The notes under the pieces: model-generated
The model's input: the letters and a program-made list of their open reading frames with translations, nothing else
Told to the model about the DNA's origin: nothing
Database searches by the model: none
Made by a program: the position numbers and the translations under genes
DNA from: Microbotryum violaceum
Lineage: Eukaryota
Assembly (NCBI GenBank): GCA_001244265.2
Contig: CDLV01000004.1
Location: 3,162,001-3,226,000, forward strand
Length of the DNA: 64,000 nucleotides
Direction: 5' to 3'
In this document: positions 9,566-59,351 of the stretch, in pieces
Numbering within the stretch: position 1 is the first letter of the stretch
Layout: each line of letters begins with the position of its first letter

Positions 9566-9594
9566 ATAGCCAGAAATGGGTACCCAGCGCTCCC

Positions 9595-12049: not shown

Positions 12050-15826
<3,777 letters not shown>

Positions 15827-24126: not shown

Positions 24127-27100
24127 GATGCGGGGACGACGGGTGGACGTAACGGGACTCGCAGCGGCGTGAAGAACGGCATCAGGGGTGCGCTGCTGCA
24201 GAGGCGACGACGGGAGGAGGTTGATAACGTAGATGGCCGCCTGCGCAGCCTCTTCCCACCGTGATGACGGCAGTCCCGAACGATGAAGCCACGCCCGAAC
24301 AGAGTTGAGAATTGTACGCCAACTCCGCTCCTGTATGCCCATCTGACCGTGCTCGTATGCCGTGGATAGCTCGTGAAAAATGCCCCGATCAGCAAGCCAA
24401 TCCCGGAGGGTGTTGTTGATGAACTTCCCCCCCCCCCCCCCCTATCCGTGCGCAAGGTCGCCACTCCCGGGCCAGGATACTGGATCTTCAACATCGCAAC
24501 GAAGCCCTTGACTACGGACAAAGCCTCGCTCTTGAGCCGAATGCCGCGAGCCCAGTGGAAACGCGAGTGTTCATCCGTGATACCGCACAGATATTGGACG
24601 CCGGACAGAGCAGGGACAGGGGAAGGCCCCCACACGTCGGCAAAGACCCGAGCGAAAGGTGCGTTGGCGGGGTGGTGGGCAGCCTCACAACTGGGGGCAG
24701 ACACGGCCTTGCCGGAACAGCAGGCATCGCACTGATCAAGGAGACGAAGTTGATCCCGGGTTAAAGCAGAGATGTCGAGGGAAATGTTGCCCGACTTAGC
24801 AAGTTCTACCAAACGACCCCAGGACAGATGTCCCAAACGCTGATGCCAAAGCACTACATCTGTAGGCAAGGAGGTGGCTGTCAGCGCTTGGTGATCTGCC
24901 AGAGGAAGTGAGGCCGGACTCGCCTGGAGAACGTACTGGTTGCGATCGAGAGCGAAGGTGAGACTCGAAGCCGGACCCGAGACGGTGAGACCAGAGTGTT
25001 CGCCCGCGGCGTCGCAAATCGCAGACAGCTGGTACCCAACCTTCATAAGACTGGCAAGATAGACGAGCTCGGCAGACAGACCCGAGACGAGAAGGACGTC
25101 ACGGAGCTTGAGAGGCGCACCATTGGCGTCAAGCGAAGGGTGCCCTTGCCGACAGCCATGGCGCTGGACTTGAATGCGCCGACTATGCGCACCCACTCCG
25201 TCATGAAAGGCTGGAAGTCGACCAAGAGATCCCAACGAGTGGTCATGTGGCGCGTCGCCCCCGAGTCGAGGAGGTAGCGGGGACCGTCGTGCAAGTACAG
25301 CGCAGAGACTTTGGTGTCAAGGGCGATGTCGACAAAATAGTTATCGTAAGACTCGTCGTCAACCGATGGGTCAGGGCTGTACTCAGCCACGAGTGCCATT
25401 GTGTTGGCCGCGTCGATGGAGATGTTGTGCTTGGCTAAGACGGCAACCCGAAGACGGGACAGTTCGGTCGAGGGGACGGTACATTCGTTGCCAAGATGAC
25501 CGTGCTCGTAGCATTTCCGACACTGTGAGGGGCCCAGCCTCAGGCGACCTTTCTGCGCAACCCCGTGCGGCCACTTGTCCACGAGACCCGGTACCTTCGA
25601 AGCCAAGAGAAAACTGGACTTCGGTTTGCCTGACGAACGAGCGGGGCGCCTGCAACGACCCTGAGTCTTCGCCACGAGGGCTTTGGCGACATTGGTGCCG
25701 GAAGAGCGAGACATCGCCGCGCGACGAATGCGCGACGAATTGCGCCCTCCACATCACTGAGCGAGGGGATAGGGCCGAGGGCGCCAATAACCGTAACAAT
25801 AGGCCGTGGCATCCTCGCCTTCAAGAGGTCCATGCGGATACCTTCCGACAACGCAGGCGGCGGAATCCACTTGTCAAACTCAGCTTGCGTGTACTTGACC
25901 CCGTCGATCTTGGCGCGCTGGTAGGCCTTGTTGCGGGAAACATGCGCGGCGTTGAGATCGATGAACAGCCGGTTGAAGCGCGACAACCAAGGGTCGAGAG
26001 GATCTCCATCGACATAGGCTTGGTACTGAAAGAGCGCATCGAGTTTCCCCAACCACGCGAAGTCGTGTGATGCGGCGCCAAGATCCTTATCGAGGGCTGC
26101 CCACAGCTCGTGCGTGAACTGATCGGCGATGCGCGCGAACGTGGCTTCCCCCAGGCACACGAACAAGATGTTGCGGGCCTGCGCCAGGGCTTGATCGAGG
26201 TCGTCGACGTCATGACGGTAGTTCCGATGTTGTGTACGGAATGTGGCTACGTCGGCCACAGTGGAGCCACCCAGCGTACGGGTGAACTCGGACTGTTCGG
26301 GCTCGGGGCCCACGCTGAGTTCGGTCGTGACATGCTTGAACTGGCCATCGCCCTCCAACACCTGTTGGAGTCGATCCTTGGCCGTTCCCCAATTTGTGGC
26401 GTCGACATTGCCATACAGGTTGCCCATAAGGCCGCGATGAGTGGCGGACCCGGAATCCACCGTGGTCGTAGCCATCTTGGATATGCGCTGCGTCTTTTCT
26501 GCGTGCGGATCTGTGCCTTGCGGCAATACAGACGCTACCAAATAAGAGACTGACGAGCGTGTAATCCAACCGTGGAGAGAAGACAACGGTTGGTGCGCAT
26601 CGTCAGGCTTCACTAAACAGGCGAGCGCTTCTAAACAGATTACCAATGAACGCGCCATTCCTAGCCCTCATTCCCAATGCACCAACTATGTGATGTGCTT
26701 TGCTGCAACAGCTGCGGTACTGCTCAGTAACGGAAACCTAGTGGTTGAAGTCGGGAGAGAACCGCGCGATGACGATCAAATGCACAGAGACTTCATTTCA
26801 TCACTGAACTACTTTTTCGTTCTCTGGGAGCCCGATGATGGGCTTAGACCGTCGTCGAGACCCGCGTCGATTGTAGACCTTTTCACGGGTGTCTGTCAGG
26901 TTCAAACTTTATCTCAGTTATTTTAGTAAGACTGGAGCCCTAGCCGACTAGGCCACCAAAAGGGAACAGTAATCAAGATGAAAGTTGATCACGAACTGAG
27001 CCCTTTAGCTGTCATGGGCTCCTAACCATGACAGTGTCGCAAGCTGACTTGCAAGCTGCCACGGGATGGTGAGCCGCAATTCAGTGAACCAGAGGTCTGT

Positions 27101-29164
27101 TTTTTGCGTGATTCGTTTATTTCAACTATCAGTATTTTTGCTGTTGTCCATCTGTAGCGATGGCAGTGAAGGCTCACATTTAGTGTCCCATGGACCCGGA
27201 TTATCAGCGGTACGAAGTCAATCCTTCCGCCGTCTCTACCCGTGGCCTTATGACTGCACATACGTCCCCCACCCTTAAAATGGTGTGTGCGTACAGCTCA
27301 ACATGCCCGTCAACGTTTACAGGTAGCGGCGTAGCGTTAGACCTTGCTCATTGTAGCTTCCTTCATGAGCGTTGTTGTAGAACATGTGGTATTTGTTGGC
27401 ATCGATGTCGTTTTCCCAGGCAGGCCACGGTGGGTGCCCCCCCCCCCCTTTTTCGGGGATAGGATCACCTCCTGTCTGAAGCCCGATGTCTGCTTTTATC
27501 TCACTTTGCGTCATACTTAAGACTGCACAGCCAATGCCAAGTGATAACTGACGCATGTAGTGTCACCAGCGGATGGCGAAGAAAAACAACTCGAGGGTTG
27601 ACATTCAAAGAAGACGTGTTGAAGGGACTTGCTGCTTTGTAGTTTTCCATTAGCTCCTCAACAATCCCACACCAAGAGCACATTTCATGAAGTCACTTAC
27701 TCGAATCCGTAGCTATGCTGCATGCGGCAGCCGTTTCTTGGGAAAACCTGTCCCGTATTCGTTGCAGAGTTCCACGACGACCGCTTCGGGTGTCGCGAGC
27801 TCGAGGCTTGTCTCGAGGACAGTTCGGGTCGGCCCACGCATTCGGTGTCCGCATCTCTGAGGCTGAATGGGTGGTTGGCTGACATTATGAAGGTATATCA
27901 ACGGGCTGCTCCCCTAAACGCTGTTCGCGTCACTTACTACACGAGAGGCATCCCTGTTGAGGGATCAATCGACACAATCTTCCCAAGCATTGTGACAACT
28001 ACTTGAGCCGTGTCGTGGGCCAGGACCGCATGACCAAGTTACCTTCGAGTAACTTGACTACATATTTCGTGGCCGTCGGCCTTCATGGAAGAGACGGTCG
28101 TGCGTTGTTTCGCGTACATTGCGGCAAGTTGATCGACGTCATCGACTGACAGAGTTGTTCGTTTTCGGTCCGCGAAGTTGTAGGATGGTTGTGTTGGGGC
28201 TTCTTCCATGAGTGGCGATGGGATGAGGTGCGATGGGTAAGGTCTGAAGAGCAGCTGAGGAGGGAGAAAGATGGAGAAGCCTGCGCCTCAATTTAAACCG
28301 GGTTCATAGAATGTCGCGGTGCGTGGTTAAGAGTCTGAAGACTTTATTAGGTTTTGTTTCCTGTTTCTGTTTCTGATGCTAAATGGGAGATATCCTTGCT
28401 TTATAAATCTTGCCCTGGCCTTACAAGTCACTAGCTTGAAAGTATGTTTAGCGCATGGTTAACACTTTACTTCTTAGTCTCTTCCCCGTTCGCTCTCGCA
28501 ACGGTGCTGACTGAAGTGTCATTCAGTGCGAGATACATAGCGTCCCAAACCTGGTGCTCGGTTCATGATTGATCAGGCAGGTCTGTTCAAAGTCGTCTTG
28601 ATCGCAGCAGGTTCTCCAGGCTTCGGATTAACGTTTCCTGAAGTGAGCTAGAGTCTCGCTCCTTGTTCAGCATTTTACGTCTGAATTTTCGTGTGACTTC
28701 ATTCGCAACTATCATCAATCATCTATCATCCTATCGACGAGCCTCGTGCCCGTCTTTCATCTCCCAGGCTCCACGTCTTGAGCTTCGAAAGCCTCTGTTG
28801 CGCTGGGAGCTCTGACCGGAAAGCCAACAAACCGATCATCTGCAACTCCACATGCACATACACCATCTCTCTAACTTCTATTCTTTAATGAGCGCCTTTG
28901 AAGAAATCGCCTTGTATATCTTTAGGGTTTTGCTCTCGTTTTTATGGAGGGACTAGTTCGAGATCCTTCGAATAACTCGAATCCTCTCGACCTACTATAC
29001 GTTCGACAGTCTCGGCATCGTACTCGTTCCAACCACCCCAACAGCCATCCTTCAACTCCTCGACCTAATCCAAGGGTTCCATCCATCAAAGTCTTCTCTT
29101 GGTGTGTGTGTGCTCAGCGCATCCTCCGTCTCGGTCGGGGTTGTTTTGTGTTCGAAGAACGTCT

Positions 29165-29804
29165 CTAGTGGTATCGATAATAGTCCATCGCGAGGTGGTA
29201 CATCCGATCTTGAGCGTCCTGTAGGGCCGGGGACAACGAAAAGAAGATAAGAATTTCTCCATTTATAGGCAAGGGGCTCGGCCGGCTCGGTACTCACATC
29301 TCTCATCTCGGGGAACTTGGGGTTCTTGTAAAAGCCGTTCAGGCCTTGGATGACCTGTATGAAGGAATCAACAACGTGGGGAAAGATGAGTTAGTTTTTA
29401 TATGGGCGATGAGGAGAGCGACTCAGAATTGTTGTGAAGCCCGAGGCAGGGACAGCGTGTGAACCCTCTCTCCGGCCGAACACGCCGACTCCCCGGCGTC
29501 TCACTATAACCAGCGGTGGAAGTCGTAGGTCAGGTCAGAGACGATAGCGCAGTTAATGTGGTCCAGCGCCCGATAAGGGTCGTCTCTTTGTAGACTAGCT
29601 GGAATTCAAATTCTCATTCTCACTATAACCAGTCCCATAAGGCCCGACCGGCCTGTTTATTAGTTCACGTTGTTGGCAATCATCATCCCGACTCACATTG
29701 TTGTAGTTCTTCTCCGTGACCGTACCATCATCCCTGACCTGAATGACGAACTTGCCGTTGTAGTACTCCCTCACGATTTGGGCCTTGGGGGGTCGACGAG
29801 CCAT
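29165..29804 (-). CDS. 72-aa microprotein, Con-6-N-module family, copy D
   Basis: Exons 29697-29804, 29298-29354, 29165-29218, phase-0 GT-AG introns: MARRPPKAQIVREYYNGKFVIQVRDDGTVTEKNYNN/VIQGLNGFYKNPKFPEMRD/DAQDRMYHLAMDYYRYH. Confidence 0.8.
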
Positions 29805-30258
29805 TGGGAGCGTCGGCGGAGGAACCGAGGGCGGGAAGGCACAAAGGAGAAACGAGAGGAGCATCCATACATAATGCCGCGAGTAAATGGTGCATTTACA
29901 AATTACGCGCGCGCGTTTACCTCCGAAGCTTGACCCATCTACCCCGGTAAGTAAGGTGCAAAGTTCACTTACAAATGGTGCATTCTTCGCCCAAGCTGGT
30001 GCGTTTGCTCCCGAAAAAAGGTGCGTTTACCAATTAAGGATGGTGCATCTACCACGTAGCGGGGCAATCCGCTGTATCTCGTATAGTATGCCATGTATCA
30101 CCCTGAAACTTGACGAGCCCTTTTACATGACCACGAAGTACGTCCACCCTTGGTAAGAAGCACTCTCACCCGGATCTCATTTCGTTGGAAATCGGGGGAA
30201 ATCGTGCCTGCACCCCGGCTCTCGTCCCAGCGGCCATCATCCGGAACCCCGGACCGAG

Positions 30259-31918
30259 TTTTTTTTTTATTTTTTTATGAGAAGAGGACAAAAATGCCCT
30301 CGAAAGATAGCGAAAGGACGAAAATGACCTCGCTTCTTTTTATGAGGACAGAGATGCCCTTCTCTAAAGGACCAAAATGCCCTCGGATTCTCGACTTCTG
30401 TAATACTTGGTATATCAGCTCATAACCAAGAGGGTAGCTTTTTGTAGTCGTTGTGATGCTCATAACCAAGAGGGTAGCTTTTTGTAGTCGTTGTGATCAG
30501 CGCCGTATACTCAGAATCCCCAGAGATGCCGTGAGAATTCATATATCACGGTTGCAAAGTCAGGGCCCTATCGCGACTGAAGCGAGTCCAAGTCGAAAGC
30601 GAGCGATGAGTATAGACCGAGTGAATTCCATATGAAAAAGGTCAGCAGTAGAAGCATTGACAGTTTTGACGCCTTATGCTCAAATTCAAATGGTCTATCT
30701 ATCTATCGCATGTAACTCGGTTGTGTCCGGGGCCTTTGCAGAGACCACAGATCGTGTCGCGCTTGGACCTCTCATCCGCACCTCGGATCCTGCGTTTGAT
30801 CGGACGTCGTATAGGCTTGGAGAGATGTGACGGAATGATAATGACACCCTCTTCTTCGCCAGTTGAGTCACTATCGTCAACTTCACCATGACCTCATGAC
30901 GCTCACGAGGAAGACGATGCAACTTCCATTCGGCCCGAGATGAAACAGGTTGGAGCGGTGTCGCGTAAGTCTGCTCTTGCTGTCGCCGGTGTGCAGCAGC
31001 GATCGGTGACTGTGGGCTTCATTAAGAACAATGATGGTCCAAACACTGCATTCTCCTTTGGAGATAGCAGTGGCAGAGAAGGAGCACGGAGGATCTTGGA
31101 CACTCTTGCTCACGACGCGTGTCAGTCTTGCGAATGTCGAGCTGAAACTGGTGATCAAGCGCATATTGATGGCCCGCATCTGTGAGCTCCTTCTTTTCGT
31201 AGAGACTTTCCCCCTCCCTGAAAAAATGTTCCATTGTCGAAAGTCGGTGGTGACTTCGATGTCGAGGCGAGAATGCGGAAGGTGGCCAACCTCGATTCGC
31301 GAACTCGCGCGCCTCGACGCGTCGACGATCGATGAGGACCCCTGACTTTGCGACCGTGATATATGAATTCTCACGGCATCTCTGGGGATTCTGAGTATAC
31401 GGCGCTGATCACAACGACTACAAAAAGCTACCCTCTTGGTTATGAGCTGATATACCAAGTATTACAGAAGTCGAGAATCCGAGGGCATTTTGGTCCTTTA
31501 GAGAAGGGCATCTCTGTCCTCATAAAAAGAAGCGAGGTCGTTTTCGTCCTTTCGCTATCTTTCGAGGGCATTTTTGTCCTTTTCTCTTTTTTATTTGATA
31601 GACTTCATTAACCGCATAACTAGAAATCTTCGGAAAAGTCGGAGGGAATGCTGTTACGCACACTGGCAGAAGCTAGTAGTGTAGGATTCATTGACCCTGA
31701 ACCAGGATCAACCATACCCACTAAGACCCCCTTTGCAGTGGTGGCTTACAGAAACACTAGGCGACCCTTGGACTCCTGAATAGAGGCTCGAAGCCCCTCG
31801 AAGTCCGTTTCGGTGATCGGTTCCAAAAGATCCGACGAGAATCGGCGACGGCGACAGAGCTTCCAGATCGAGTGAAAGAAGAGGACTCGTAGTTCGACAA
31901 GTCGACGTTCCGAGCGAG
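30259..31918 (-). mobile_element. 3' fragment of LINE family B (~330 bp plus tail), split by a MULE in its tail
   Basis: 31587-31918 is the reverse complement of ~49428-49770; the T-rich tail continues at 30259-30278. Confidence 0.9.
30279..31586 (-). mobile_element. Internally deleted Mutator-like element (MULE)
   Basis: ~245-bp TIRs (30279-~30565 including a 40-bp duplication; ~31340-31586) starting GAGAA, TSD TTTTTTAT; internal FREGESLYEKKELTDAGHQYALDHQFQLDIRKTD..C..C.VWTIIVLNEAHSH resembles the MuDR N-terminal zinc DNA-binding domain. Confidence 0.85.
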
Positions 31919-32379
31919 TAGCCACCCCCCCCCCCCCCCACACCCTAGGCTGCAATACAATGACTAAGATGATCAATCATCTCGGAGCTGCTGGATGTCG
32001 GAGCTGCTGGATGTGTCCATATGGGGTGCGACACTTTGTATAGCATTCCTCGCCGTATTTCCTGCCTCAGCAACTTGACGGACAAGGAAGATCATTGACT
32101 GCCTTTCCAAACCATCCGTGAACCTGTCCTAAAAAAGCTAGTAGCACATCACCAAGTGTTCTCGCAAATGTCACTAGCCGCGATCATTATATCATTATAT
32201 ATATACATCCTTCCGTTCTACTCAAAGTGGCACGGCTTAGGATCGACGACCTCATTCCTCTTCTTGCAGCTGCTCCAAATAAACCATGACCAATGTGAGT
32301 GTTCTGGTGACAAGGAAGGATCCGATGCAGGTTGGGAGAGCCCATACCTTGAATTGACTCCAACATCAGATTCGTCTTG

Positions 32380-33985
32380 CGAGCCCGGCATTGAGTGCAA
32401 GGCTTCAGCTTCAGCGAAGCCGCGCAGCTTTGAAAAAGGATTCTTCCCTCTTGCGCTTCGATCGGCGAGGGCTTGGGGTGCTTGTGGATATAGCGGCAAT
32501 TGACCGAACGGCCAATGTACGTGTTTGATACCTTGGCAAGCAAGCAACGACCTCGAGTGCCTCAGACACCGGCAGAGAGTTGGTAGGGTCGAACTTTACG
32601 ACCCTCTGGAGTCTCATCGGCGGCGCATCTGGCATCGAACCAATCGTTGCAATTGATAGTGCCGGGTTGGGCCGCGGGCTTCGCGAAATTAACGGAGCAG
32701 TACATTGAGCGTCGGGATTGGACTCAGAGGTGTACATTGTGCCGATCGAAGGGTCAATCAGAACAAGGGTAGGCGCGGAAATTTCAATGCCGGGCGATCC
32801 CAAGGGCTTCTCTTCGAGCTCCGGCGAACTCTCCTTGAGCGCGAGTGGTACAGATTCTGCATACACAAATGTCGGCCTCAATATCAAGCAAGCTTGAACT
32901 ATCACTAAGATTAGATCGTTGAGATCAACAGTAGAATGACTGACCGGGAACCGGCGGAGGAGCTCCAGTCGCCCCTCGCAAATCGAGGGGAGGGGGGTCA
33001 AAATTTGCTTCCAACTCCGTGTCACACCGCAAGCGCGCATGAACAACAACGTCTGACATGTATGCGCGTTGGTCAGCATATAAGTTGTCCTGTAGTGGCT
33101 TGGGTGGGCTCCAGCTCCAGTCTAATTCAGACTGAAACGCAACCGCCGCGACCAATTTTCCATCGTTCGACAAATGAAGACGCCGCAAGCGTTGCCATCG
33201 GGCTGTCGCATAAACTCTGACCTAGGCATCAAGTCTACCTTCTTCGGTGCTCGCGGTTTCACGATCACTCGCTCCCGCTCTGCGTACGGGATTGTGGGCC
33301 GGTCACTGCCTCCGGTGACACGAGGGATGGGTCCTTCTGCCCGAGCCGTGAGGAAAGCAACGATGTTCTGCGATCATCAGCTCGGCGGATTATAGTCAGC
33401 CTATCAGGTAAGCGGGATCCACACAAGTCTCTTCTCCCTCTCACCTTCAAACAAGTGGCAAAATCTATTTGCAGGCTGTTTATTCGTGCTCCTGTTCCGG
33501 TTGGTTTCGCCAATGAAGGATAGGAGGAGGATCGGTGAGGAATAATTTTGTCAGTTTTGCTTCCTAATCAGCAACTTCAACTAGCCATCAGTGACTGCTT
33601 ATGCTTGGAACCAGTATCGAAATACTTCGGTAGCCATGCACAAAGGAAGCTTGAGAATTGATATGGTGTCCTTGAGCGTCCATTCATCTGCTTTCCTTCG
33701 GTCGCCAAGAATCAGCGGCCATTGCCCGTAGTCGGCTTTCTCTTCCGCCGACCAGAGGCGGTTCGACGACATGATCGCTTGACGTTTGGCTTGCATTGTG
33801 TCATACTCCAGCGGTATATGGTTGGATACACAATTTTCGAGGAGGTTGACGACTTGGCGCAGTCGATCCATGGCTTCTTCGCCGCCATCGGAGGAGCTGG
33901 CTTCGGAGTCGTCGACGGCGGGGTCTGAGTCGGCGTTCGAGTCGACATCGTCGGAGCAGTCCTCACTCCTCAGGAGTCATTGAAA
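32380..33985 (-). pseudogene. Degenerate cargo gene(s) of unknown function inside the TA-flanked element
   Basis: ORFs 33599-33871 (acidic upstream extension with a stop) and 32411-33079; no family recognised. Confidence 0.35.
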
Positions 33986-34795
33986 TTTGGGTGGAGTGCG
34001 TCACTGCGGGAGATTGGTCGATGATATCGGGCTCCCGCTGGCCCAAGTCTTTGTTCTGGGTAGACGTAGTCGAGGATAACTGGGAGGTGCCACGTGCAGG
34101 TGGGCTGGCATGTCGATTGGTTGGGTCCCAATGCGGGGGGGCCACCCTTATTCTGGAGTGTTGCATTCATCTGCTGACTGGACATGACGTATGCGAAACG
34201 AGTTTTGGAACCAAGGCAAGTATCGGTCGATGGCAACGGATGGCAGGAACTGGCGTGGCGCGGTGAACATGAGTAGAAAGTAGAAGTAGGCGTTGGGCGC
34301 GACGCGACGCGTCAAGCAGGCTACGTGCACCCAGACAAAATTGAGCAAGGTCGCTGGCGGCGATGCGCGGCTGTGCAGTGGATGCAGGGCCTACTTTGCT
34401 TGGGCACTGACACGCATGATCGGATCACCTGACCCGTTGTAGTACCCAGTAAAAGAAAGAGTGAATATTCGATGCCTGGGGGTCTTCGTCGAGCCCGTGG
34501 GCGGGGGCCCGAGTACGGGCACGATTTTCAACTACATGAGATCCGGGTGAGAGTGCTTCTTACCAAGGGTGGACGTACTTCGTGGTCATGTAAGAGGGCT
34601 CGTCAAGTTTCAGGGTGATACATGGCATACTATACGAGATACAGCGGATCGCCCCCTTACGTGGTAGATGCACCATCCTTAATTGGTAAACGCACCTTTT
34701 TCCGGGAGCAAACGCACCAGCTTGCGCGAAGAATGCACCATTTGTAAGTGAACTTTGCACCTTACTAGTACCGGGGTAGATAGGTCAAGCTTCGG

Positions 34796-35122
34796 TATAT
34801 TGATACAACCCGGACTTTTGAATCACCCACAAGAAAGGTGGCGTCGGTGACTCGGTCCGGGGAAAGAGAAAGAGGCACGAAGCTGAGTGTTGGGAGGCGA
34901 CTCGGGATCAATAATAATGACCACGGAGTCGCTCTTCCATAGTATGGCAGTATTGTTGAAAGGAGTGAAAAGAGCGGAGAGCTCAAGTCTTGGCACTCCT
35001 GCGTCCACTGGGCCACCCTTTCCGGGAAAGGTCGGCCAGTTTCGCTCAGGAGAAAGACGTCGGCGTTGTGGGATCGGAGACTGGAGAAAAGAGAGGCACG
35101 CTTACGGTCTTCATTGATTGAC
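34796..35122 (-). mobile_element. Internal endonuclease-domain fragment of LINE family B inserted in the right TIR
   Basis: Reverse complement of ~46081-46403; no tail, no TSD. Confidence 0.9.
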
Positions 35123-36228
35123 GGGTAAACGCGCGCGCGTAAATTGTAATTGCACCATTTGCTCGCGGCATTAACCCATTTTCTTTACCGATTACCGATT
35201 ACCGATTAGGCAGGCGGGCGAGTGAAGAGCGCCGTCGAACAAGCAGGTTGGCCGCCACGTATGATCGGGGCTCGAGAGCAAGCGGTACTGCCATGATTCA
35301 CGGCAGCAGGGACCCAGTGATAAACATGAGGGTACTCACCCGAGTGTAGTTGGGCTGGCAGAGCGATGAGGTGGTGTGCGAGCGATGAGGTGGTGTGCGA
35401 GCGACGAGGTGGTGGGAGAGGCGACTGGGAGAAGCATGCTGGCTCGTCAGAGGTCTTGGGGGACAAGATAACCCGCAAGCTGTGGATGTGTAGTTCGAGG
35501 ACGAGGTACAGGACCTAGCGTTTTCGAGGAAGGTAAGGGGGAAGGACAACCGCGGGCTTTTGGAGCGAGCTTGCAGAAGCAGTGAATGGTAGGAGGGAGA
35601 GAGGCGTTCGTCCTCTTCCGTCCTTTTATACCCCCCTCCATAAAACCTTTTCGAAGCCCATAAAACAAAAGCTACGACAAGTCGCGTAGGCCTCTTTTTC
35701 GAGGATCGTGCTTCCGGTATCACAGGCCGAGTTGGAACAAATTGGAAGTTGCTGGAAGACTGTTTGTGGAATGTGAAATACGTATTTTCCAATGGAGAGG
35801 AGGGGTCCGCGGCGCAAAGTCCGAAAGAGAGCGCTGTCGATCGAGGAGAAAGTCGGAAGCCGAGGACAAAGAGAGGAAATGTGGGGAGAGCGGACGAAAA
35901 CGAGTTAGGGGTTTTGTTCCCCTTGCGCGGGCCCAAACCATAGAGCCTCACCCGCCTACGGCTCGTCTACAAACAGCTCGCCCTTAGGTGGAGCTGTAGT
36001 CAAAGATGAAATTTTGGATTGGCCACAAAAAGGGCTTTTCGATTGATTAAACATTGCATGTGGTGTTTTGGTGCAGCAAGATGCTAAATCGGAAGGTGTG
36101 TGCAATGACAGCGAAAACGCTCGCCCAGTCGTCGCGCTCGGCGATTCTCGAGTGCGCGCACGACATAATCACCATTGGTGCAGTCTTTGGTCACCCTTCA
36201 GCGAGCAAATACGCTATACCGCAGGCCC

Positions 36229-36294
36229 CAACGTCGAGAGATAATGTTGTCAATATTTCGACAACGTCGAGAGATAATGTTGTCAATATTTCGA
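36229..36294. repeat. 33-bp perfect tandem duplication
   Basis: CAACGTCGAGAGATAATGTTGTCAATATTTCGA x2. Confidence 0.9.
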
Positions 36295-36438
36295 AAGTCA
36301 AACCCGGTCCATTGCAGCAAGGGACCGAACAAAAGCTTAGGAAACGAAACCCCTGACTCCTCTTCACATTCGTCGATGCCACGTCTGAGACGCCCACTTA
36401 ACCCAACTCCGAATATCAACGCAGCCAAAGCTCATCTT

Positions 36439-36858
36439 TCAGCGCTTTCCCTGAGCCGAGTTGCTTCCTTGGTGCTGCGCGTGGTGCTGTTGACCGAGTT
36501 GATGAGCTTGAGCTTGAGCGTACTGTGATCAACCAGAAGCCGACAGGAGTGTTCCCAGTGCGGGACACCATGAGCTCGAACCGAAGGTCCCTCGAAAGTT
36601 CTCGTCAAGCTTCTCGAAGACTCACGTCCTTCTGCTGAGGTTGTTGGGGGTTGTTGTAGAGGCCATTATAGCCATTGAGGACCTGTTGTGAGGCGAGCAA
36701 GGATGGGCAAAGCATGAGCCTAGACCACGCTGTCGGTCGGATTGAAGTGGCTCGAATAGTCGGCAGTGACTTACAGCGTTGTAGTCTTTCGTGACCTGGT
36801 TTCCGTCACCCTTCGTCTGGATGACGTTGTTGCCGGAGACGTGTTGATTCTTGGGCAT
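36439..36858 (-). CDS. 74-aa N/Q/H-rich microprotein, Con-6-N-module family, copy A (intact)
   Basis: Exons 36775-36858, 36626-36682, 36439-36522: MPKNQHVSGNNVIQTKGDGNQVTKDYNA/VLNGYNGLYNNPQQPQQKD/YAQAQAHQLGQQHHAQHQGSNSAQGKR. Confidence 0.85.
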
Positions 36859-37647
36859 CTTGGGCGGTTCAGTTGAGCGGGTGGACGGGGGAGTGAAACT
36901 TGAGGGCGTCGCGTTTGGCTGAGGATTGTAGGGAGGAAGAAGAAAGCCTGCTGTTTCTCGAGAGGTGAGAGAGCATTGAATGGCGTGCGTGGGGTAACCG
37001 AGTAATTTGCCCGTTCATTTGCCCGATTGGTGGCTACTGAACTAGCGACTCCCACGGCTTGCTCTCGGCGCTTCCGAGTTCACGTCCGCGTGGACGGGCC
37101 AATACCCCTATTTCGAGGTATGTGCGTCGTCATTGCTGCTGCTCCATGCTATGCGGTGGTCGTGAGCTAAAGCATGAGCTAAACTCTCTTGTGTCATCAT
37201 ACCAGACGACTTATAGAAAGAATGGACTCTGTAACGCGGTTCGCCTTTGACAGCGCAGCTCCATGTTTAATGGCGATGCAGCTAACCGCGGCAATGACGC
37301 TATCAGGCGCATCACCTTCCCCTTATTTCCCTCGGCCTAAGCGTATCCGACCCTATTCCGTTGCTTCTCCTGAACTTTAATACCGATGAGGTGAGGAAAC
37401 ACTTCTAGCAAGGATCTCCGGGCCCAGCTGCAGCACGCGGTTCCGGAAATCGACCGCGGACTTGGGGCTCCTGAGCATTAACACCAAGTAGCGAACAGGC
37501 AGGATGAGAATCATTTTTCAGCTTATATCCGGTTCTCCCTGGATTGGTCAACTACCGTGACTCATTCAGAAGGAGTCACGAGGTGTGTACCGAGAATCCC
37601 GGCCGCCGTCTCAGCCCCGAGACCTGTCTCCGTTGTTTTGGGTTGGC

Positions 37648-39090
37648 CTAAACGCTGAGTGTACTGTGATCAACCAGAAGCAGAAACCAGTTTTTCCAGG
37701 GCACTGGCAGGGACACCAGTAACTCATACCCCACGACTAAACGTCGCCGCCCTTGTACTTGACTTGAAGATCGCGCAGTACGATGACATTGCGGCGAGAC
37801 CGGATGTCCTTGGATATGTCTCTGGCAGGTAACGACTGAATATCGCCCAGTCACTGACGAGTATCTCGGGACCGCTCACAGGTATGCCGATCGAAGCAGT
37901 CAGCAGTCCTCTTAAACCTGACAACGTCATCGAAGATAGCGAGGAGCGTTCCATCGCCGATGAACGAGACTGGAATCTCACGTGACTGATACTTGGACAT
38001 GGCTGGTGCAGTTGGCCGTGGGAATAAATTGTCCAGCGACTAGCATGTCAGTCGCAGGACACTCGCTCGCTTTTGTCAGTGCTACTACAGACAGGATGCG
38101 AATGTGCCTGTGCACACAACGGTCACGAGGTAGAAATCTGGATGATTGATGTTACAGCACGGAAAGCGAGTGTGGGTGAGACGTAGACAGGTTGCAAGCT
38201 TTCATTATCTGGGATTCAGTGAGACAAGGCCTACTAGCACTGCAGGCGTGCCCTTTAGCAGCATGACTGGGGACACGCCATGTTACAGCACGGGAAGCGA
38301 GTCTGGGTGCGACGTAGACAGTTTGCGAGCTCCTACTGCCTGGGATTCACTGAGAGCCCTAGCAGGCGTGCCCGTTGGCAGCATGACTGGGGACACGCCT
38401 TAGTTCCAAAGCTCCACTGCAATCGCGCGACTAGTCGAGGCGTGACAGTACAGAGGTTATGGACGGTGAGGCCTTGACTCTGTATGAGCGTGGAACTGAT
38501 GTCAGGATGTCGAGGACAGCTCCCTTCGGAATCTACAGGTCGATACTGGAGGTGCACGTTATGAGCTTGGCGTGCCGGGGGATTCATGATGACATCGCAT
38601 GGCAGCTCGATGAGCCAGCCAGTCATACTGACGGCGAGTTCATGGAAGCTGACAGTCTCGTACTTCAACGCCTCTGTAGGGCTGACGTGGTGTGATACCT
38701 CTGATGGCTTTAGCGTCTCGTGATATAGTGACAGTTGTGGTCATCTCGATTGAAGTGACATGACGGGAGTGGTATTCTGATGCGGCAATGCAGTGGATTT
38801 AGAATGAGCTCGTGCCCGAGCTCCCCGAAAATTCTCGTCAAGCTGCTCGAAGACTCACGTCTTTTCCTTGAGGTTGTTGGAGGTTATTTAAAAGCCTTTC
38901 TAGCCATTGATGACCTGGTGTGAGGCCAGCAAGGGTGGGCAAAGCATGAGCCTAGCCCACTCTGTCGGTCGGATTGAAGTGGCTCGAATAGTCGGCAGTG
39001 ACTTACAGCGTTGTAGTCTTTCGTGACCTGGTTTCCGTCACCCTTCGTCTGGATGACGTTGTTGCCGGAGACGTGTTGATTCTTGGGCAT
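37648..39090 (-). pseudogene. Microprotein copy B (pseudogene)
   Basis: Exon 1 identical to copy A; exon 2 has TAG/TAA stops; intron 2 is interrupted by an ~1.1-kb insertion; exon 3 remnant at ~37650-37668. Confidence 0.8.
37719..38803. other. ~1.1-kb insertion in intron 2 of copy B, containing a ~131-bp-period imperfect tandem duplication (~38148-38400)
   Basis: Copy A intron reads GGGACACCA|TGAGCTCG contiguously; in copy B these halves are separated by 37719-38803. Confidence 0.7.
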
Positions 39091-39685
39091 CTTGGGCGGT
39101 TCAGTTGAGCGGGTGGACGGGGGAGTGAAACTTGAGGGCGTCGCGTTTGGCTGAGGATTGTAGGGAGGAAGAAGAAAGCCTGCTGTTTCTCGAGAGGTGA
39201 GAGAGCATTGAATGGCGTGCGTGGGGTAACCGAGTAATTTGCCCGTTCATTTGCCCGATTGGTGTCTACTGAACTAGCGACTCCCACGGCTTGCTCTCGG
39301 CGCTTCCGAGTTCACGTCCGCGTGGACGGGCCAATACCCCTATTTCGAGGTATGTGCGTCGTCATTGCTGCTGCTCCATGCTATGCGGTGGTCGTGAGCT
39401 AAAGCATGAGCTAAACTCTCTTGTGTCATCATACCAGACGACTTATAGAAAGAATGGACTCTGTAACGCGGTTCGCCTTTGACAGCGCAGCTCCATGTTT
39501 AATGGCGATGCAGCTAACCGCGGCAATGACGCTATCAGGCGCATCACCTTCCCCTTATTTCCCTCGGCCTAAGCGTATCCGACCCTATTCCGTTGCTTCT
39601 CCTGAACTTTAATACCGATGAGGTGAGGAAACACTTCTAGCAAGGATCTCCAGGCCCAGCTGCAGCACGCGGTTCCGGAAATCGA
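38962..39685. repeat. Near-identical direct duplicate of 36730-37453 (offset 2232)
   Basis: Covers exon 1 and the upstream region of copies A and B; only about two differences seen by eye. Confidence 0.92.
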
Positions 39686-40086
39686 TTACGGACTTGGGGC
39701 TCCTGAGCACCAACACCGAGTAGTGAACGGGCATAGTGCGGAACTCATTTCTCGGGTCTCTGGATCGGCCCACCTTTACTCTCATTCAGAGACAGTGTGC
39801 ACCAGATTCCGCCTTCTCAGCCCCACACCGTGGCATTGAGTTGGCTTGACCGCCGAAGCTCTCCTGTTCAAGGAGGGGTCACCCGGAAATGCTTTCTATT
39901 CCAGCACGTCCCCTCTCAGGTGAACACACGAGTAACTGATCGAATCAACTGATTTCACTGCACTTCAATCAAATTCATTTGAAAACGACACTCCCTGACC
40001 TTCAAAACCCTCACCACGTGCGAGTTGAACGTATGACTTAGTCGACCTTGCGCCGGTCGCAACGAAGCGCAACGAATGGGGATTCC

Positions 40087-40550
40087 TCATTTGCGACCGG
40101 ACGAGTTACCACCTTGTTGATGTTGCTGGTAGTATTGTTGCGACAACAGGTGACTTTGCGCTTGGGCGTACTGACGGATCCGATAGATATCAGGAACGCG
40201 TGAGCTCTCGGGCTCACAAGAGAATTGGATCCCAGGCACGCAACGTGGGAAACGACTCACGTCCTTCAAATCCGAGTGTTGAGGGTTATTGTACAAGCCA
40301 TTGTAGCCTTGTTGGACCTGTCAGGACGAAACCTGCATCATCGGTCAGCTCACCTGATCATAGATGGCTTCCAGCACTGCTGGCTAGAAGTTAGAACCCG
40401 GGCCTATGCCACGGGTATGACGAGTACGAGACGTGGAGCGGGCGGAGATGGGCCACCTACGTTGTTGTAGTCCTTGACGACGTACGAACCATCCCCCTTG
40501 GTCTAGACGACGTGATGACCGGAAACGAACTGGTTGGGTTGGTTGGGCAT
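40087..40550 (-). pseudogene. Microprotein copy C with a single premature stop (TAG at 40503-40505 where copy A has CAG)
   Basis: Exons 40461-40550, 40261-40317, 40087-40170: MPNQPNQFVSGHHVV*TKGDGSYVVKDYNN/VQQGYNGLYNNPQHSDLKD/YAQAQSHLLSQQYYQQHQQGGNSSGRK. Confidence 0.82.
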
Positions 40551-40973
40551 GGTATGGTAGTAGTTGAGTGGTGTTTGTGTGCGTTGGAGTGGTTGAGCTT
40601 GGTGGGTGCGATGTGGTGGAGAGGAGAGTAGGCGTGAGCGTGGGCCACCTCGAAAACCCGCCGCCGACTTGCACGCGCCAAAAGTGACACGCGCCACCAC
40701 GTGTGGGGCGCCGCTCGTGTCTCGCTCTCGAGCCCGGCCAGAGGGAGTCGATTCGTGAACGCGTATCACGCGCAAGATTATGTGCGGTGTAGCCGTCTGA
40801 TCACATCAAACTATTCAACCCGCTGAGAACCGAACTTTCAGGGCCTACGCGTATTCTATTTAGTCTCATTCGGATGGGGCAAGCTCGCGATGTCAAAAAG
40901 AAAAACACCCGATGGATTTCGATTAAGATGGCTTCGGTTAAAAGACTTGTGACTTGCATTGCACGGCTTCATC

Positions 40974-42162
40974 TCACACAACACTCAGCGGCTCTATATC
41001 AGCCATACTAATGAGCACCTCATATGCGTCCCCTCCAGCCTCCTCATTCATCGCCTTGGCCAACCGAGGGGCAAAAGGCTTGAGCCACGGTCGTTCAGAC
41101 GCCGAGTGGTTCGTCAAGATGACATGGATGCCCTTGGCGTTGCAGAGCAGGGTGGCGTGGTGGTCGAGTTCACCACTGAGGTAGAGGTCCGCTTTGACAC
41201 CGGAGAGTACGGAGGAGCCTGGATGTGAAGAGGAGACAATGGGGCTCGCGGATCAGTCTCGAGCAAGTCTAGTCGCAGGATCGAGAAGGTCCGAACTCAC
41301 CGCTACCGGCGCAGATGGCGATCGTCTTGATCTTTTCAGCTCCATTCGGTGCCCATGCCGCTTGCGCTGTGAGCGAACAGAGTGTGAAGAGGGCTCCATC
41401 AGGATCAGCTTTTGCACCTCCACTTCGCAAGCATACACTTCGGAATGAGATGGCCCGGGCTGGCAACTCTGCACTCACCGTGATCCAAATTTAATGTGTG
41501 CTTGATCCTCTTCACCACTTCGTGCTTATTCAACGCGTGATCGAGCGTGACCAATCTTCCCAAACCGCAACCCTCGTGCCCCTCAGGTTGTTCCTTGCTC
41601 TCCTCAATCGCCTTGCTTGTCGCTCGTAGATCCAACGTGAAGGCGCTGGCAATATGATCGTTGACGCCTCCGATCGACGAATCGGAAGCGGTATGGATGC
41701 AGACGACGGGAATCCCGTGTGTTGAAAGTCGGAGGAGGGATGCTTGGAGAGGTACGGCGAGCGTCATGGATTTGAGGCCAGAGAAAATGGGCGGGTGGTA
41801 CGTCAGTACCGCCGCGGTTGATGACGACGCCAGAGCTTCTTCTGTCACGGCTGTTGTCACTGTAGACGATGGTGAGATAGCTCAGCATGCTGTGCGTGGG
41901 AAACTGACAGGAGGCATGTGCGAGCGATAACGGCCAGAGTTCACTCACGGTCGATACAGGTCAACACTTGCTTCTTTCCCTTGATTTCCTGACGAGGATA
42001 AGGTGCCTCGATCATAACGCCGACATTGTCCCATGATCTCGCGAGTTGTAGAGGCGTCAATCGCTCGACAGCAGCTAGAAGATGATTAAGCACGGGCGAC
42101 CGAACGGTGCTGAAGCTGCTCGAGCTGAACGAGCTGAACGAGGCGGCGGAGGTTGACGACAT
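40974..42162 (-). CDS. NIF3: NIF3/YbgI family protein (spliced)
   Basis: PLQLARSWDNVG, LTCID, TYHPPIF, IHTASD..GGVND, IAICAGSG, SGELDHH, TNHSASER motifs across GT-AG exons. Confidence 0.93.
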
Positions 42163-42684
42163 GGTACGGTAGATATTTGTCAAGCCACGATGCATGCGAT
42201 TCGAGGAAGTAGAGGTGAGTCAGTCTTTCAACGGACCCTTTGTTAATTGGATAGCGAGGCCAAGGAACCTAAAAATAGCTTGCATCGCCGTCACGCTCGG
42301 TCCGGCTGCGGAGCCGTGAGGACCCCCGAAAGCCCAGCCATAGGCGGCCTTCTAAAAACGGCCTTTTTCGAGGCAAAATGATCAATTTTTTTCCAGATTT
42401 TGACTGAAAATGTCCAAATATGAGGGCCGCCTAGTGCTGAATAATTTTTGAAAACTACTCTCCAAGCTCTACAATGCTCAGAATTTTTTCTGCGCTGCGC
42501 GCAGACTGCGTTTCCGCCCCGCCGCGATCCACTGCCGCGCTTGATGGGCCAAGCTCTGACAAAGCTTACCGCCATACGAGCATGAGCCAGGCTGACCTTC
42601 ATTCTTCATCATTGTTGACGCCCTTCGTCTTCGTCTGAACGGCCTCCTGGTGCAAGACAAGCAAGGGATGCTGCTCAAATTTCT

Positions 42685-44872
42685 TTAAGGTTCTGCAAAA
42701 AGCCTGTACCGTTGTTCTTGATTGACGGTGATGTGAATTTCCCCTTCATCACGCCAGTTAGATCGTGTGGAATCCTTGACCTCGTAGTTGATGCTTGACA
42801 AGTCCGGTTTGAGCGAATTTATGATACAGCGCCCATCGACTTGACGAATGCGCGTGTTGCCCTGATGAGACAGGTTGGAGTAAACTCCCGGAGCGATGAC
42901 ACGCAGCTCTTGTATCACGGCATTTGCGAAAAGAGCAAGAGAGTCAAGACTTTCAAAACTTTCATAAGTTGTGCTTGACTTCTTGTAAATGTTCCTCACT
43001 GCAGGGAAGGTGACAAGTAAAATGCGCAGTCACGGTGCTAGTCAGTCATGTGAAGTTTCCCCACACAAGTAGTAGTTTGGCATACCTATCCGATTGCCAG
43101 TCGTTCCCCGCATTGTTCACCCGAAGGCAAACCCATAGGTTCTTCTGGGATTCCATACACGACCAGTGTGTCCACCTTGAGAGGACGGGGTGCAGACACA
43201 TCACCATCAACAGCTCGGACGAGTACGTGGTTCGACATGATCTGACCATAGACCTCTTGTCGTCCTTTCATTTTGTCCTGTAACGTCGGAGTCAAACGTC
43301 AGCGCAGGAAAAGGCACGCCCCAGCTTGGGTCATGATACATCACGAATCAGCGACTAACGTGAGATCGTCCCTCGGTGATGATCGCAGTTGTCGCTTGCT
43401 CGTGCAACGTCTTCTCCCGGATATTTGCCCCTGAAGCGAAGGTTCCTCTCGTTCCCCACAGACTGTCGATACCTGTCCATTCCCATTGTCTCGACTATCC
43501 GTCGAAGTGCGGCAGAATGCACGTTGCCGCGGTGCTCGGTTCGGTTTTGGGCAAAAGGTTGATCTGACGCTACGTTCTGCGCGCCACCTTTAAACTTGAT
43601 CTTCTCGAGGTGTCGGCATTGGTGTGCACGTCGTCGAGCGAGCAAGCTGTCCAAGTCGAGTGTGGGGACAGAGTAGAGGGCCCCCTTCTCTAGAAGATCA
43701 CGCGGGTACGGGGGCGCTTCCCACTGGTTGGGAACACGGGTCTGTATCGGTAAATGCATCGATCAACCGATAATTGCGCTCACTCACGGATTGCTCATGC
43801 TCATGGCATGCTTCGGCCAGGATCGTTTGAAACTCTCGATCTTCTTCTTCTGCATCGGCTTGATCGAAGCCAGCATCAACAGCATCGCTGAGGGTTCAAT
43901 ATACGGTTGTTAGTGATCGTTTGTTGCTCTCAAACACCAAGCTACGTACATCGGAGCTTCCTGGTCAATGTCAAGCGCAGTCACCAAAAGAAGCGCGTCG
44001 CCTTCCTCGCGTCGCCTTCCTTGCGTCGCCTTCCTGGCGTCGCATAATACACGGTAATGGCTCCGATCCGACAAGACGGAGACGATCGAGGACTTGGTTC
44101 AGACCAGCCTCGTTCACGTTCGGAGGGACACCTTGGCGAACGGTCGACTCGGATGTGTTTCGGAGTACCAGGGGGAGCCTGCAGACACACGCAAGATTCT
44201 ACCCACATCAGTATCCAAGATCGACTCATGAATGAGCCCAGAGGATGCAAACTCACTGAGGATCTGTAGAAAGTCTTGGAGGCGTGTAGATCGACCTCGA
44301 AGATTGACGCGGTCGACAGCTGTCCAACGTATGCGAGTGAGGTGATGACGAGCACTCGCAAGCTCACGCTCCCGAATCGCGTCGGCGTTAGCTAATCGAG
44401 GAATCCATTCTTGAATGTTGTGGATGATATATCGATTTTTTTCTGCCTTGTCGAGATGGGCCCATAACGCCGAGGCATTAAGAGGAAGGCGCATTGACCG
44501 ACGACCCCGATACGGCGAATGCGATAGATCGATAGCCATCGAGATAAGCCAAGGATAGAAAGCTTTGATCGGAAAACTTTCGATAGATTGCTTCAAGGGG
44601 CGTGGCAGCGCGTCAAAATGTCGAGGGACATCTTTCGATAGAGCAAGTCGGAGAGAAGCGTCGGGCGCAGGTAGGTCGTACGCGAGTAGGTCAACGAGGC
44701 GTAGGTCGGCAACAGGGCTCAAGATTGCAAATTTCTCGGAGGTGAGAGCAAAGCTCGGTTTGATATTAATGATCACAGGCATTTTGAACACCTTTGTAGA
44801 CACCTTTGTAGAGTATAGAGTGCCAGTGATTGGGTGCCACGACCGCGGTCGGTGGCGTGTCGCGCGGGTCAA
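42685..44872 (-). pseudogene. N- and C-terminal remnants of the element's large ORF; catalytic core not visible
   Basis: ORFs 44114-44872, 43355-43759 and 42685-42999; the latter two are homologous to copy 2 ORFs; a 14-bp x3.5 tandem repeat at 43995-44043 lies near the apparent deletion junction. Confidence 0.65.
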
Positions 44873-58750: not shown

Positions 58751-59351
58751 ATGTCCGCGGAGCACACCACTTTGGTCAAGGGCGACAAGGTCCTGGAGAA
58801 GGTCGGAGACCAAAGTCAGTTCCCTTCAAGGGCCCTCGCAGTCATCAGCGTATCAGTCTCGCGTCGTTTAACCGATCTCGAGCTTGAAGGGCGGAGGTAT
58901 TTTGTCAACGTGCTGACCTATCTACCGCGTCTTGAACATCCCCAGTCGTCGCCGAGAAGGACTATGTCCGTGTTCTCAGTGGCTACAAGGCCACCGCACA
59001 CAAGCAGAACTTGCCCGAGGAGACCCGCAAGATGCATTCAGCCTCTCTCTCGGACATGGGCAGATCGCATTCTTCCTGACAGTAGTGACACTCGATCGAT
59101 AATGTGCTGACCCGATGTTGCGCTCATCCTCACAGCGCGCCGAAGAGATGATTCAGAAACTCGAGGAGTCGCACGCGGCCTCCGTCGGTGAAGGAGCAAG
59201 TGGTGGAGCAGGTGGTGGAAGTGGTGCAGACGAGGACCAGCATCAGCACCGCGTCGCCGGCGGTCTCAAAGCTGCGATCCACAACCCCAACGTGTCCGAG
59301 GAGGCCAAGCAGAGTGCTCAAGAAAAACTCGAGAAGCTAGGCGAGGCTTGA
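58751..59351 (+). CDS. Con-6 (conidiation-specific protein 6)-like protein, 121 aa if spliced; second donor reads AT instead of GT
   Basis: Exons 58751-58814, 58946-59031, 59136-59351; RVLSGYKATAH..PEETRKRAEEMI and HRVAGGLKAAIHNPNVSEEAKQSAQEKL Con-6 repeats. Confidence 0.85.

What the first reader, a model, noticed from the sequence alone, without database searches (positions are those of the whole stretch)
29165..40550. Hidden tandem cluster of four three-exon microprotein genes related to the N-terminal module of the Con-6-like gene
Seen: four minus-strand genes (29165-29804, 36439-36858, 37648-39090, 40087-40550) share a three-exon layout. A, C and D have phase-0 introns and an exactly 57-nt middle exon; B's is degenerate. 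Proteins are 72-76 aa with V/Y.G..VIQ...DG....K(D/N)YN.V..G.NG.Y.NP. This aligns with the N-terminus of the Con-6-like protein 18 kb away (LVKGDKVLEKVGDQIVAEKDYVRVLSGY vs HVSGNNVIQTKGDGNQVTKDYNAVLNGY). Two copies are intact, one has a single nonsense change and one is decayed. The ORF track shows only unspliced fragments. Inference: an unannotated, birth-and-death family of hydrophilic N/Q/H-rich (LEA-like or prion-like) spore or stress microproteins.
Basis: partly seen in the sequence, partly recalled or inferred. Interest (0 to 1): 0.75.

Follow-up and report, generated by a model that had tools for sequence, protein, structure and literature searches.

The report
Divergent Con-6 small-protein gene cluster
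These are real, spliced small genes in an anther-smut fungus: shortened, much-changed offshoots of a known fungal spore protein, one of which is switched on about 30,000-fold inside the host plant while two other copies are decaying.

Summary
Three of the four gene models are exact, and public RNA contigs show 6 spliced joints at these genes. The DNA is from a Microbotryum anther smut, in the non-recombining mating-type region; a second allele lies on contig C1. The proteins are single-repeat, divergent offshoots of a Microbotryomycetes Con-6 (PF10346) subfamily with an N-terminal beta extension, represented by the neighbouring gene E (58751-59351). They share one intron position with E and match a non-Microbotryum profile far above shuffles, but miss Pfam's cut-off.

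Corrections: the cluster is not unannotated. A and B are the hypothetical proteins MVLG_05352 and MVLG_05353, and A, B and D have annotated orthologues in other Microbotryum species. C is a chimeric, frameshifted transcript. Prion-likeness is unsupported.

Published RNA-seq shows B about 2^15-fold induced in planta, high in young buds and stems and falling late. E is expressed only late, and has lost a splice donor. Best reading: birth-and-death plus a shift in expression; B is an abundant intracellular Con-6-like stress or maturation protein of the dikaryon. Function is inferred.

The parts
29165..29804 (-). Gene A (allele of MVLG_05352): exons 29804-29697, 29354-29298, 29218-29165; 72 aa, intact
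   Evidence: Model; intron 2 joint; 70/72 identical to MVLG_05352, 67/72 to M. saponariae, 49/72 to M. intermedium
36439..36858 (-). Gene B (allele of MVLG_05353): exons 36858-36775, 36682-36626, 36522-36439; 74 aa, intact; poly-A near 36289
   Evidence: 73/74 identical to MVLG_05353, 71/74 to M. saponariae; allele dN/dS 0.09 on 3 synonymous and 1 non-synonymous change
38859..39090 (-). Copy C, B-derived 5' part: exon 1 (39090-39007) and a 56-nt exon 2 (38914-38859) with stop and frameshift; transcribed pseudogene
   Evidence: the stop is present in both haplotypes
37703..38776 (-). Foreign segment inside C's second intron; it supplies the spliced third exon (38776 to about 38173). Homologous to a locus on C6 and to the C-terminal part of a 183-aa M. 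saponariae model; carries stops
   Evidence: Joint 38776/38859; C6:1733832-1734239 at 73%; tblastn 43-61% to P0009. The lower boundary is inferred from the remnant at 37656-37702
37648..37702 (-). Remnant of C's original intron-2 end and exon-3 start
   Evidence: 47 nt at 83% to B 36515-36561
38804..39733 (-). 932-bp duplicate of B's upstream region, exon 1 and exon 2; recently converted from B in this haplotype
   Evidence: 96% to 36570-37501. Beyond column 100, B and C differ at 1 column in this haplotype and at 43 in C1
40087..40550 (-). Copy D: exons 40550-40461, 40317-40261, 40170-40087; TAG at codon 16 (Gln in orthologues); transcribed, recent pseudogene
   Evidence: intact orthologues P0007 and P0013; the C1 allele has the same stop plus a 2-nt deletion and an 8.5-kb insertion in intron 2
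58751..59351 (+). Gene E (MVLG_05358), N-extended two-repeat Con-6 gene, closest relative of the cluster. Its intron-2 donor at 59032 reads AT in both haplotypes; the annotated 99-aa form uses a donor at 58966 and drops most of repeat 1
   Evidence: Pfam Con-6 19 and 69 bits

Best explanation
Origin (shown, about 0.9): an ancestral Microbotryomycetes Con-6 gene with a short N-terminal beta extension and two repeats (type E) gave rise, before the sampled Microbotryum species split, to a one-module copy (extension plus repeat 1, no repeat 2). That copy triplicated into A, B and D. B later spawned short-lived copies: C here, and several truncated ones in M. saponariae. In this lineage D took a nonsense change and C became a broken chimera, on a non-recombining mating-type chromosome.

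Expression (shown in published data): E is late and spore-stage; A is moderate in all samples; B is near zero in mated cells and extremely high in planta before spores mature.

Working (inferred, about 0.5): B is a very abundant, non-secreted, hydrophilic protein (small beta sheet, two amphipathic helices, short disordered tail). It does in dikaryotic and sporogenous hyphae what Con-6 does in spores: it stabilises cell contents and helps set the osmotic and dormancy state during entry into teliospore formation. A is a low-level, more charged version.
For: A profile from three non-Microbotryum N-modules scores 8 of 8 family proteins at 5.5-21.6 bits; 0 of 1000 shuffles reach the score for 7 of them, 1 of 1000 for the eighth. 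Profile-profile E = 1.2e-4 and 9.4e-6. Intron 2 sits at the aligned position and phase in E and in A, B, D. A/B/D form one side of a 100/100 branch against E-type modules. Consecutive gene numbers in M. intermedium (6917-6919) and M. saponariae (03712-03717). B-D dN/dS 0.14. FPKM in Toh et al. Table S2: B mated 0.4-1.2, stage 8 23,200, stage 9 25,900-27,400, stage 10 5,000-10,600, late 680-830, stem 5,900-10,900; E 0-5.6 until late (46-176); A 124-515. GRAVY -1.46 and Gly 11% meet the hydrophilin rule for B.
Against: No A/B/D protein hits Pfam Con-6 even at E 10. A profile of 51 generic Con-6 repeats separated only 1 of 6 family proteins from shuffles. The K-A and SEEAK parts of the repeat are lost. 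Intron 1 differs from E. The three outgroup sequences were found with a profile that held the family, so that test is not fully independent. B-D dS is near saturation (2.5), and the A comparisons give dN/dS about 0.57. No protein-level evidence exists. FPKM of a 225-nt CDS may be inflated (inference). Con-6 is not a proven protectant: the A. nidulans conF/conJ double mutant is more desiccation-resistant, via polyols (PMC4169166).
Confidence: 0.6

Rival explanations
1. Same origin, but B has a new, specific binding role (a partner protein, nucleic acid or membrane) in the dikaryon or in teliospore development, using the beta extension.
For: The folded model is confident (pLDDT 80). Invariant G9, V12, Y26, V29 and G32 hold across 15 sequences. 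B is 71/74 identical between species. The charged Con-6 surface is replaced by N/Q/Y.
Against: Transcript abundance suits a bulk protein more than a regulator (inference). No meaningful structural match. No partner is known.
Confidence: 0.22
2. B is a transient nitrogen-storage or filler protein of sporogenous hyphae.
For: 34% N+Q, very high transcript before spore maturation, then a fall.
Against: Tight sequence conservation and a retained fold are more than storage needs. It is also high in stems.
Confidence: 0.1
3. B is an unconventionally secreted effector acting on the host plant.
For: Small, genus-restricted at single-sequence sensitivity, log2FC about 15 in planta.
Against: No hydrophobic leader by inspection and no cysteine. 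Its relatives are intracellular spore proteins (recalled).
Confidence: 0.05
4. The proteins are prion-like or condensate-forming.
For: B and D are 28-34% N+Q with Y and G.
Against: A is 14% N+Q. The proteins are only 72-76 aa and are predicted mostly folded. PLAAC was not available.
Confidence: 0.03

Closest known systems
Con-6 / conidiation protein 6 family (PF10346; Neurospora CON-6, Aspergillus ConF)
   Same: Small hydrophilic fungal proteins; homologous repeat core (V-x-x-G-[YL]...N-P, then a helix); developmental induction.
   Different: One repeat instead of the two or three seen in the hits. The K-A and SEEAK motifs are lost, and Pfam is not matched. There is an added N-terminal beta extension. 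B is expressed in planta before spore maturity rather than in mature spores.
N-extended Con-6 of Microbotryomycetes (gene E / MVLG_05358; Microbotryomycetes sp. JL221 and JL201; Rhodotorula taiwanensis BMF94_3900)
   Same: Same N-terminal extension plus repeat 1; the intron-2 position is shared with E; 18 kb away in the same block.
   Different: No linker or repeat 2; a different intron 1; N/Q/Y instead of E/K residues; different timing of expression.
MVLG_05352 and MVLG_05353 (M. lychnidis-dioicae hypothetical proteins) and orthologues BQ2448_6917-6919, Chr12-2g03712/03713/03717
   Same: These are A and B (C1 alleles identical, window alleles 70/72 and 73/74) and the orthologues of A, B and D.
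   Different: They are listed as hypothetical or UNKNOWN without a Pfam family. C and D have no MVLG model in the published coordinate list.
Hydrophilins / LEA-like proteins (e.g. yeast Sip18, Hsp12)
   Same: Gly above 6% and strong hydrophilicity for B and D.
   Different: No sequence link was tested or found. Stress induction is untested. The model is mostly folded. A misses the Gly threshold.

Membership tests
Con-6 (PF10346) | Pfam Con-6 match at the 25-bit cut-off | tested here: not met
   No Con-6 hit at E 10 for the window's single-exon references (6 for A, B, D) or for full-length P0001-4, P0007-9, P0011, P0125. E's repeats score 19 and 69 bits.
Con-6 (PF10346) | Detectable homology to Con-6 proteins by profile | tested here: met
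   An A/B/D-only HMM scores 110 collected Con-6 proteins at median 10.7 bits, against median -0.8 and maximum 8.7 for 1100 shuffles (part of the set came from a profile that held the family). The reverse test with generic repeats was weak, 1 of 6.
Con-6 (PF10346) | Two or more tandem repeats with the G-G-[LHY]-K-A...N-P-N-V-S-E-E-A-K pattern | tested here: not met
   One degenerate repeat, G-[YL]-N-G-L-Y-x-N-P.
Con-6 (PF10346) | Expression tied to mature spores | tested here: not met
   From published tables: B peaks at bud stages 8-9, is high in stems and is about 30-fold lower late; A is flat; E meets it. The family pattern is taken from PMC3431228 passages. Protein levels are untested.
Microbotryomycetes N-extended Con-6 (type E) | N-terminal extension V-x-G-x-x-V...K-[DN]-Y-x-x-V joined to repeat 1 | tested here: met
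   The subfamily is my own grouping of P0014, P0016, P0051, P0052 and P0060, not a published one.
Microbotryomycetes N-extended Con-6 (type E) | Shared intron positions with E | tested here: inconclusive
   1 of 2 shared: intron 2, phase 0, at aligned K-D|Y versus R-K|H. Intron 1 differs. Introns of the other genera were not seen.
Microbotryomycetes N-extended Con-6 (type E) | Second, C-terminal Con-6 repeat | tested here: not met
   Absent in A, B and D.
Hydrophilins | Gly above 6% and hydrophilicity index above 1 (PMC11277543) | tested here: inconclusive
   Met by B and D (Gly 11%, GRAVY -1.40 to -1.46). A has Gly 4/72 and GRAVY -1.09. GRAVY was used as a stand-in for the index.
Hydrophilins | Induction by osmotic stress or water deficit | not testable with these tools
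   No such data were found.
Prion-like proteins | Disordered N/Q-rich domain by PLAAC and amyloid behaviour | not testable with these tools
   PLAAC was not available. N+Q is 34, 28 and 14%. The AF2 model has 61 of 74 residues at pLDDT 70 or more.
Small secreted effectors | Signal peptide and cysteine richness | tested here: not met
   No Cys in A, B or D proteins except one in the M. intermedium A orthologue. The N-termini are polar, by inspection; no signal-peptide predictor was run.

The most novel reading that the evidence does not exclude
A dormancy-protein module (Con-6) was truncated and redeployed as a dominant product of the infectious dikaryon, with a new role in life inside the plant or in entry into teliospore formation. 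The parent gene E has lost the same module by a splice-donor change in this lineage, so the single-module copy may now be its main carrier. This would be a genetically testable handle on what Con-6 proteins do at the molecular level.
Probability: 0.2. Interest if true: 0.62.

Novelty: new variant of a known kind. Interest (0 to 1): 0.4.

Why it matters
It gives a family to a gene listed as UNKNOWN that has the largest fold change (log2FC 14.9) among the 31 rows of the one published table that names it. It shows that Con-6 has Pfam-invisible, single-repeat offshoots with changed timing. It is also a compact case of gene birth and decay in a non-recombining mating-type region: a nonsense copy, a chimera, gene conversion and a lost splice donor within 30 kb. 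It is not a new kind of system. The genes were already modelled, and their function remains inferred.

Tried and rejected
A-to-I rescue of D's UAG. I considered it because editing is reported in Microbotryum (PMC13608869). Rejected as unlikely (about 0.03): orthologues have Gln there while editing would give Trp, and the C1 allele is also frameshifted and interrupted. It could not be checked in reads: only 40 of 497 difference rows were shown.

More family copies elsewhere. P0001 gave 14 matches, all in this cluster on C1 and C2. PF10346 gave only E on C1 and C2, plus one weak C9 match (14.8 bits) that looked unrelated.

Relatives outside Microbotryum by single sequence: none credible among 7 hits; two long proteins of 4949 and 2798 aa were not followed.

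Structure and Atlas. The Atlas feature search of P0001 was blank. Foldseek gave no match at E 0.001 and the best VIA Z was 5.2, so these are uninformative. The PDB sequence search gave nothing below E 0.9. The homodimer job gave no answer.

dUTPase-like origin of C's foreign exon (a recalled resemblance). No Pfam or PDB hit, and the single-sequence model had pLDDT 33. Left unproven.

MVLG_05354 as copy C. Rejected: its coordinates map into the 8.5-kb insertion of the C1 D allele (my arithmetic).

A's intron-1 repeat as part of that insertion's family: no blastn match.

The look-up of sequencing runs listed no holder on record as RNA.

Literature. 'MVLG_05353' is in the main text of 1 paper. 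Searches for Microbotryum with Con-6 terms gave only two rust papers. Searches were background. Subscription papers are not covered.
Full report
Setting. The window is G000:C2:3162001-3226000 of a 33-Mb, 20-contig genome. Contig C1 holds a reversed second copy of most of window 20.8-64 kb at about 95-99.9% identity, with several kilobase-scale insertions private to one side. Named hits identify Microbotryum anther smuts. The C1 alleles of A and B translate exactly to MVLG_05352 and MVLG_05353, which the genome paper's table places in the non-recombining mating-type region (PMC4469406, supplement file 2). I infer that C1 and C2 are the two mating-type chromosomes. Labels run in + order: A, B, C, D, with E for the Con-6 gene at 58751-59351.

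Observation. A, B and D have the stated three-exon, phase-0 layout with a 57-nt middle exon. A and B are open, and D has a TAG at codon 16. C has B's exon 1 and a 56-nt exon 2 with a stop and a frameshift. The exon-2 splice pattern occurs 4 times on the minus strand of the window, exactly at these exons, and twice on the plus strand. Of four runs laid, X6 and X7 (one study, kind not on record) behave as RNA. They show joints at both B introns (depth 955 and 731) with a poly-A tail at 36289, both D introns (7-19), C intron 1 (73 and 32) and A intron 2 (31, X6 only). Contig depth is a poor measure of expression. A intron 1 was not among the 15 of 38 joints shown, and one contig retains part of it.

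C is spliced by an 82-nt second intron into a foreign segment. That segment matches a locus on C6 at 73% and the C-terminal part of a 183-aa M. saponariae model, with stops here. So C is a broken chimera, and only a 47-nt remnant of its original exon-3 boundary remains. In this haplotype the upstream region and exon 1 of C were recently converted from B: 1 difference beyond column 100, against 43 in C1. D's stop is in both haplotypes, and the C1 allele also has a 2-nt deletion and an 8.5-kb insertion. [quoted passage not shown] C and D have no model in the published MVLG list.

Homology. Pfam sees nothing in A, B or D, but it sees a Con-6 repeat in the second half of the E segment to which they align. 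E-type proteins with the same N-terminal extension occur in two Microbotryomycetes yeasts and in Rhodotorula taiwanensis. A profile from those three alone scores 8 of 8 family proteins at 5.5-21.6 bits; 0 of 1000 shuffles reach 7 of them and 1 of 1000 reaches the eighth. An A/B/D-only profile scores 110 collected Con-6 proteins at median 10.7 bits, above the maximum of 8.7 for 1100 shuffles. Pairwise, the family against the first 62 residues of the two E orthologues was reached by 0-4 of 2000 shuffles in 12 of 12 tests, while repeat 2 was reached by 30-1588. hhalign gave E 1.2e-4 and 9.4e-6. Intron 2 lies at the aligned position and phase in E and in A, B, D; intron 1 does not. Against this: a profile of 51 generic repeats separated only 1 of 6 family proteins from shuffles, and the outgroup sequences came from a search whose profile held the family and E. 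In a 12-row tree A/B/D fall on one side of a 100/100 branch, unrooted. A whole-library single-sequence search found only Microbotryum relatives among credible hits.

Selection. B versus D gives dN 0.37 and dS 2.5 (ratio 0.14, near saturation). A versus B or D gives about 0.57. The B alleles differ by 3 synonymous and 1 non-synonymous change, the A alleles by 1 and 2. B is 71/74 identical to its M. saponariae orthologue. No DNA of other species was available, so orthologue dN/dS was not computed.

Expression. Table S2 of Toh et al. (PMC5919739; rows read, FPKM by RSEM on coding sequences) gives B 0.4-1.2 in mated cells, 23,200 at bud stage 8, 25,900-27,400 at stage 9, 5,000-10,600 at stage 10, 680-830 late, and 5,900-10,900 in floral stems (log2FC 14.9, FDR 2.6e-168). 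E is 0-5.6 until the late stage (46-176), when teliospores are visible. A is 124-515 throughout. I did not rank B against all genes, and short coding sequences can inflate FPKM. These values are for the reference gene, not for the window's allele.

Gene E. Its intron-2 donor reads AT in both haplotypes. The M. silenes-dioicae model reads Val-His there where the window reads Met-His, which implies GT in that species. The annotated 99-aa MVLG_05358 is reproduced exactly with an upstream donor that removes most of repeat 1. I have no RNA for this junction.

Structure. AF2 on a 15-row alignment gives three short strands (5-8, 11-15, 21-25) and two helices (26-37, 45-65), mean pLDDT 80, with a disordered tail. 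The Atlas's own model of the same protein is poor (pLDDT 0.44). No solved structure matches.

How it most likely works. Shown: the origin from an E-type Con-6 gene, splicing, the decay of C and D, and the stage shift. Inferred: B is an abundant intracellular protein that plays a Con-6-like part in dikaryotic and sporogenous hyphae, stabilising cell contents and tuning osmotic and dormancy state before spores mature. What Con-6 does is itself unsettled. Single mutants lack phenotypes, and the A. nidulans conF/conJ double mutant has more polyols, delayed germination and higher desiccation resistance (passage of PMC4169166). Neurospora CON6 and a rust homologue are spore-enriched (passage of PMC3431228). 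The primary papers were not read. Rivals are a specific binding role (0.22), nitrogen storage (0.10), an effector (0.05) and a prion-like protein (0.03).

Membership and novelty. A, B and D descend from Con-6 but fail its Pfam cut-off, repeat number, motif and timing, so I file them as a new variant of a known kind, not as members. No paper found links them to Con-6 (open-access library only). The scan's earlier notes hold nothing on this family.

Papers seen. PMC13608869: abstract, passages, sections 9 and 22, part 1 of sections 4 and 31. PMC5919739: abstract, section 10, part 1 of section 3, passages, six supplement rows. PMC4469406: part 1 of supplement file 2; 12 of 24 files were not searched and may mention these genes. 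PMC4169166, PMC3431228, PMC11277543, PMC10253035 and PMC10282164: passages only.

Verdict. Real, expressed and partly annotated. The new parts are the family assignment, the extreme in-planta induction of B against late expression of E, and the decay history. Interest 0.4.

Noticed in passing
window 36805-36807 (B codon 18) and its C1 allele: PMC13608869 Table 1 lists MVLG_05353 'Asp18Asp' as an A-to-I edit unique to mated cells. Codon 18 is GAC in the window and GAT in C1, so it may be an allelic difference between mating types. The authors say they filtered such SNPs, and a T/C change in the coding strand is not A-to-G.
   Followed up: partly
window 59032-59033 (gene E): The intron-2 donor of the only Pfam-positive Con-6 gene in this genome reads AT in both haplotypes; the annotated form uses a donor at 58966 and loses most of repeat 1.
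   Followed up: partly
window genes A and B, coding exons: The window alleles carry changes at positions where the C1 allele and the M. saponariae and M. intermedium orthologues agree: A Phe44 (shared with M. silenes-dioicae) and His64, B His60. Possibly degeneration; the numbers are tiny.
   Followed up: partly
window 29861-35173: A multicopy element with long inverted repeats (29872-30194 with 34522-35173) starts about 60 bp upstream of A's ATG; an inner segment 30458-31587 is inverted in C1.
   Followed up: no
window 29549-29622: A short multicopy repeat fragment lies in A's intron 1 (high depth and loose ends in DNA-like runs), making it 342 nt against 92-143 nt in the paralogues.
   Followed up: partly
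G000:C1:2588450-2596951: An 8.5-kb insertion in intron 2 of the C1 allele of D, with long ORFs that look like reverse transcriptase and RNase H by eye. MVLG_05354 maps inside it and is induced at bud stage 8.
   Followed up: partly
window 21398-26688 and 42318-49977: Retroelement-like blocks (judged from the ORFs) present in the window and absent from the C1 allele. Window 1-15830 has no match in the fetched 100 kb of C1.
   Followed up: no
window 59469-64000 and 40223-42318: Allelic identity to C1 rises to 99.9% and 99.7% here, against 97-98.5% in most other blocks: a younger stratum or gene conversion.
   Followed up: no
G000:C6:1733832-1734840 (L020): A single locus homologous to C's foreign exon, itself broken across frames. 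It looks dUTPase-like by eye, but gave no Pfam or PDB support.
   Followed up: partly
window 32856-32945: A CT..AC spliced joint in both RNA-like runs inside the element between A and B: a transcribed minus-strand gene or element.
   Followed up: no
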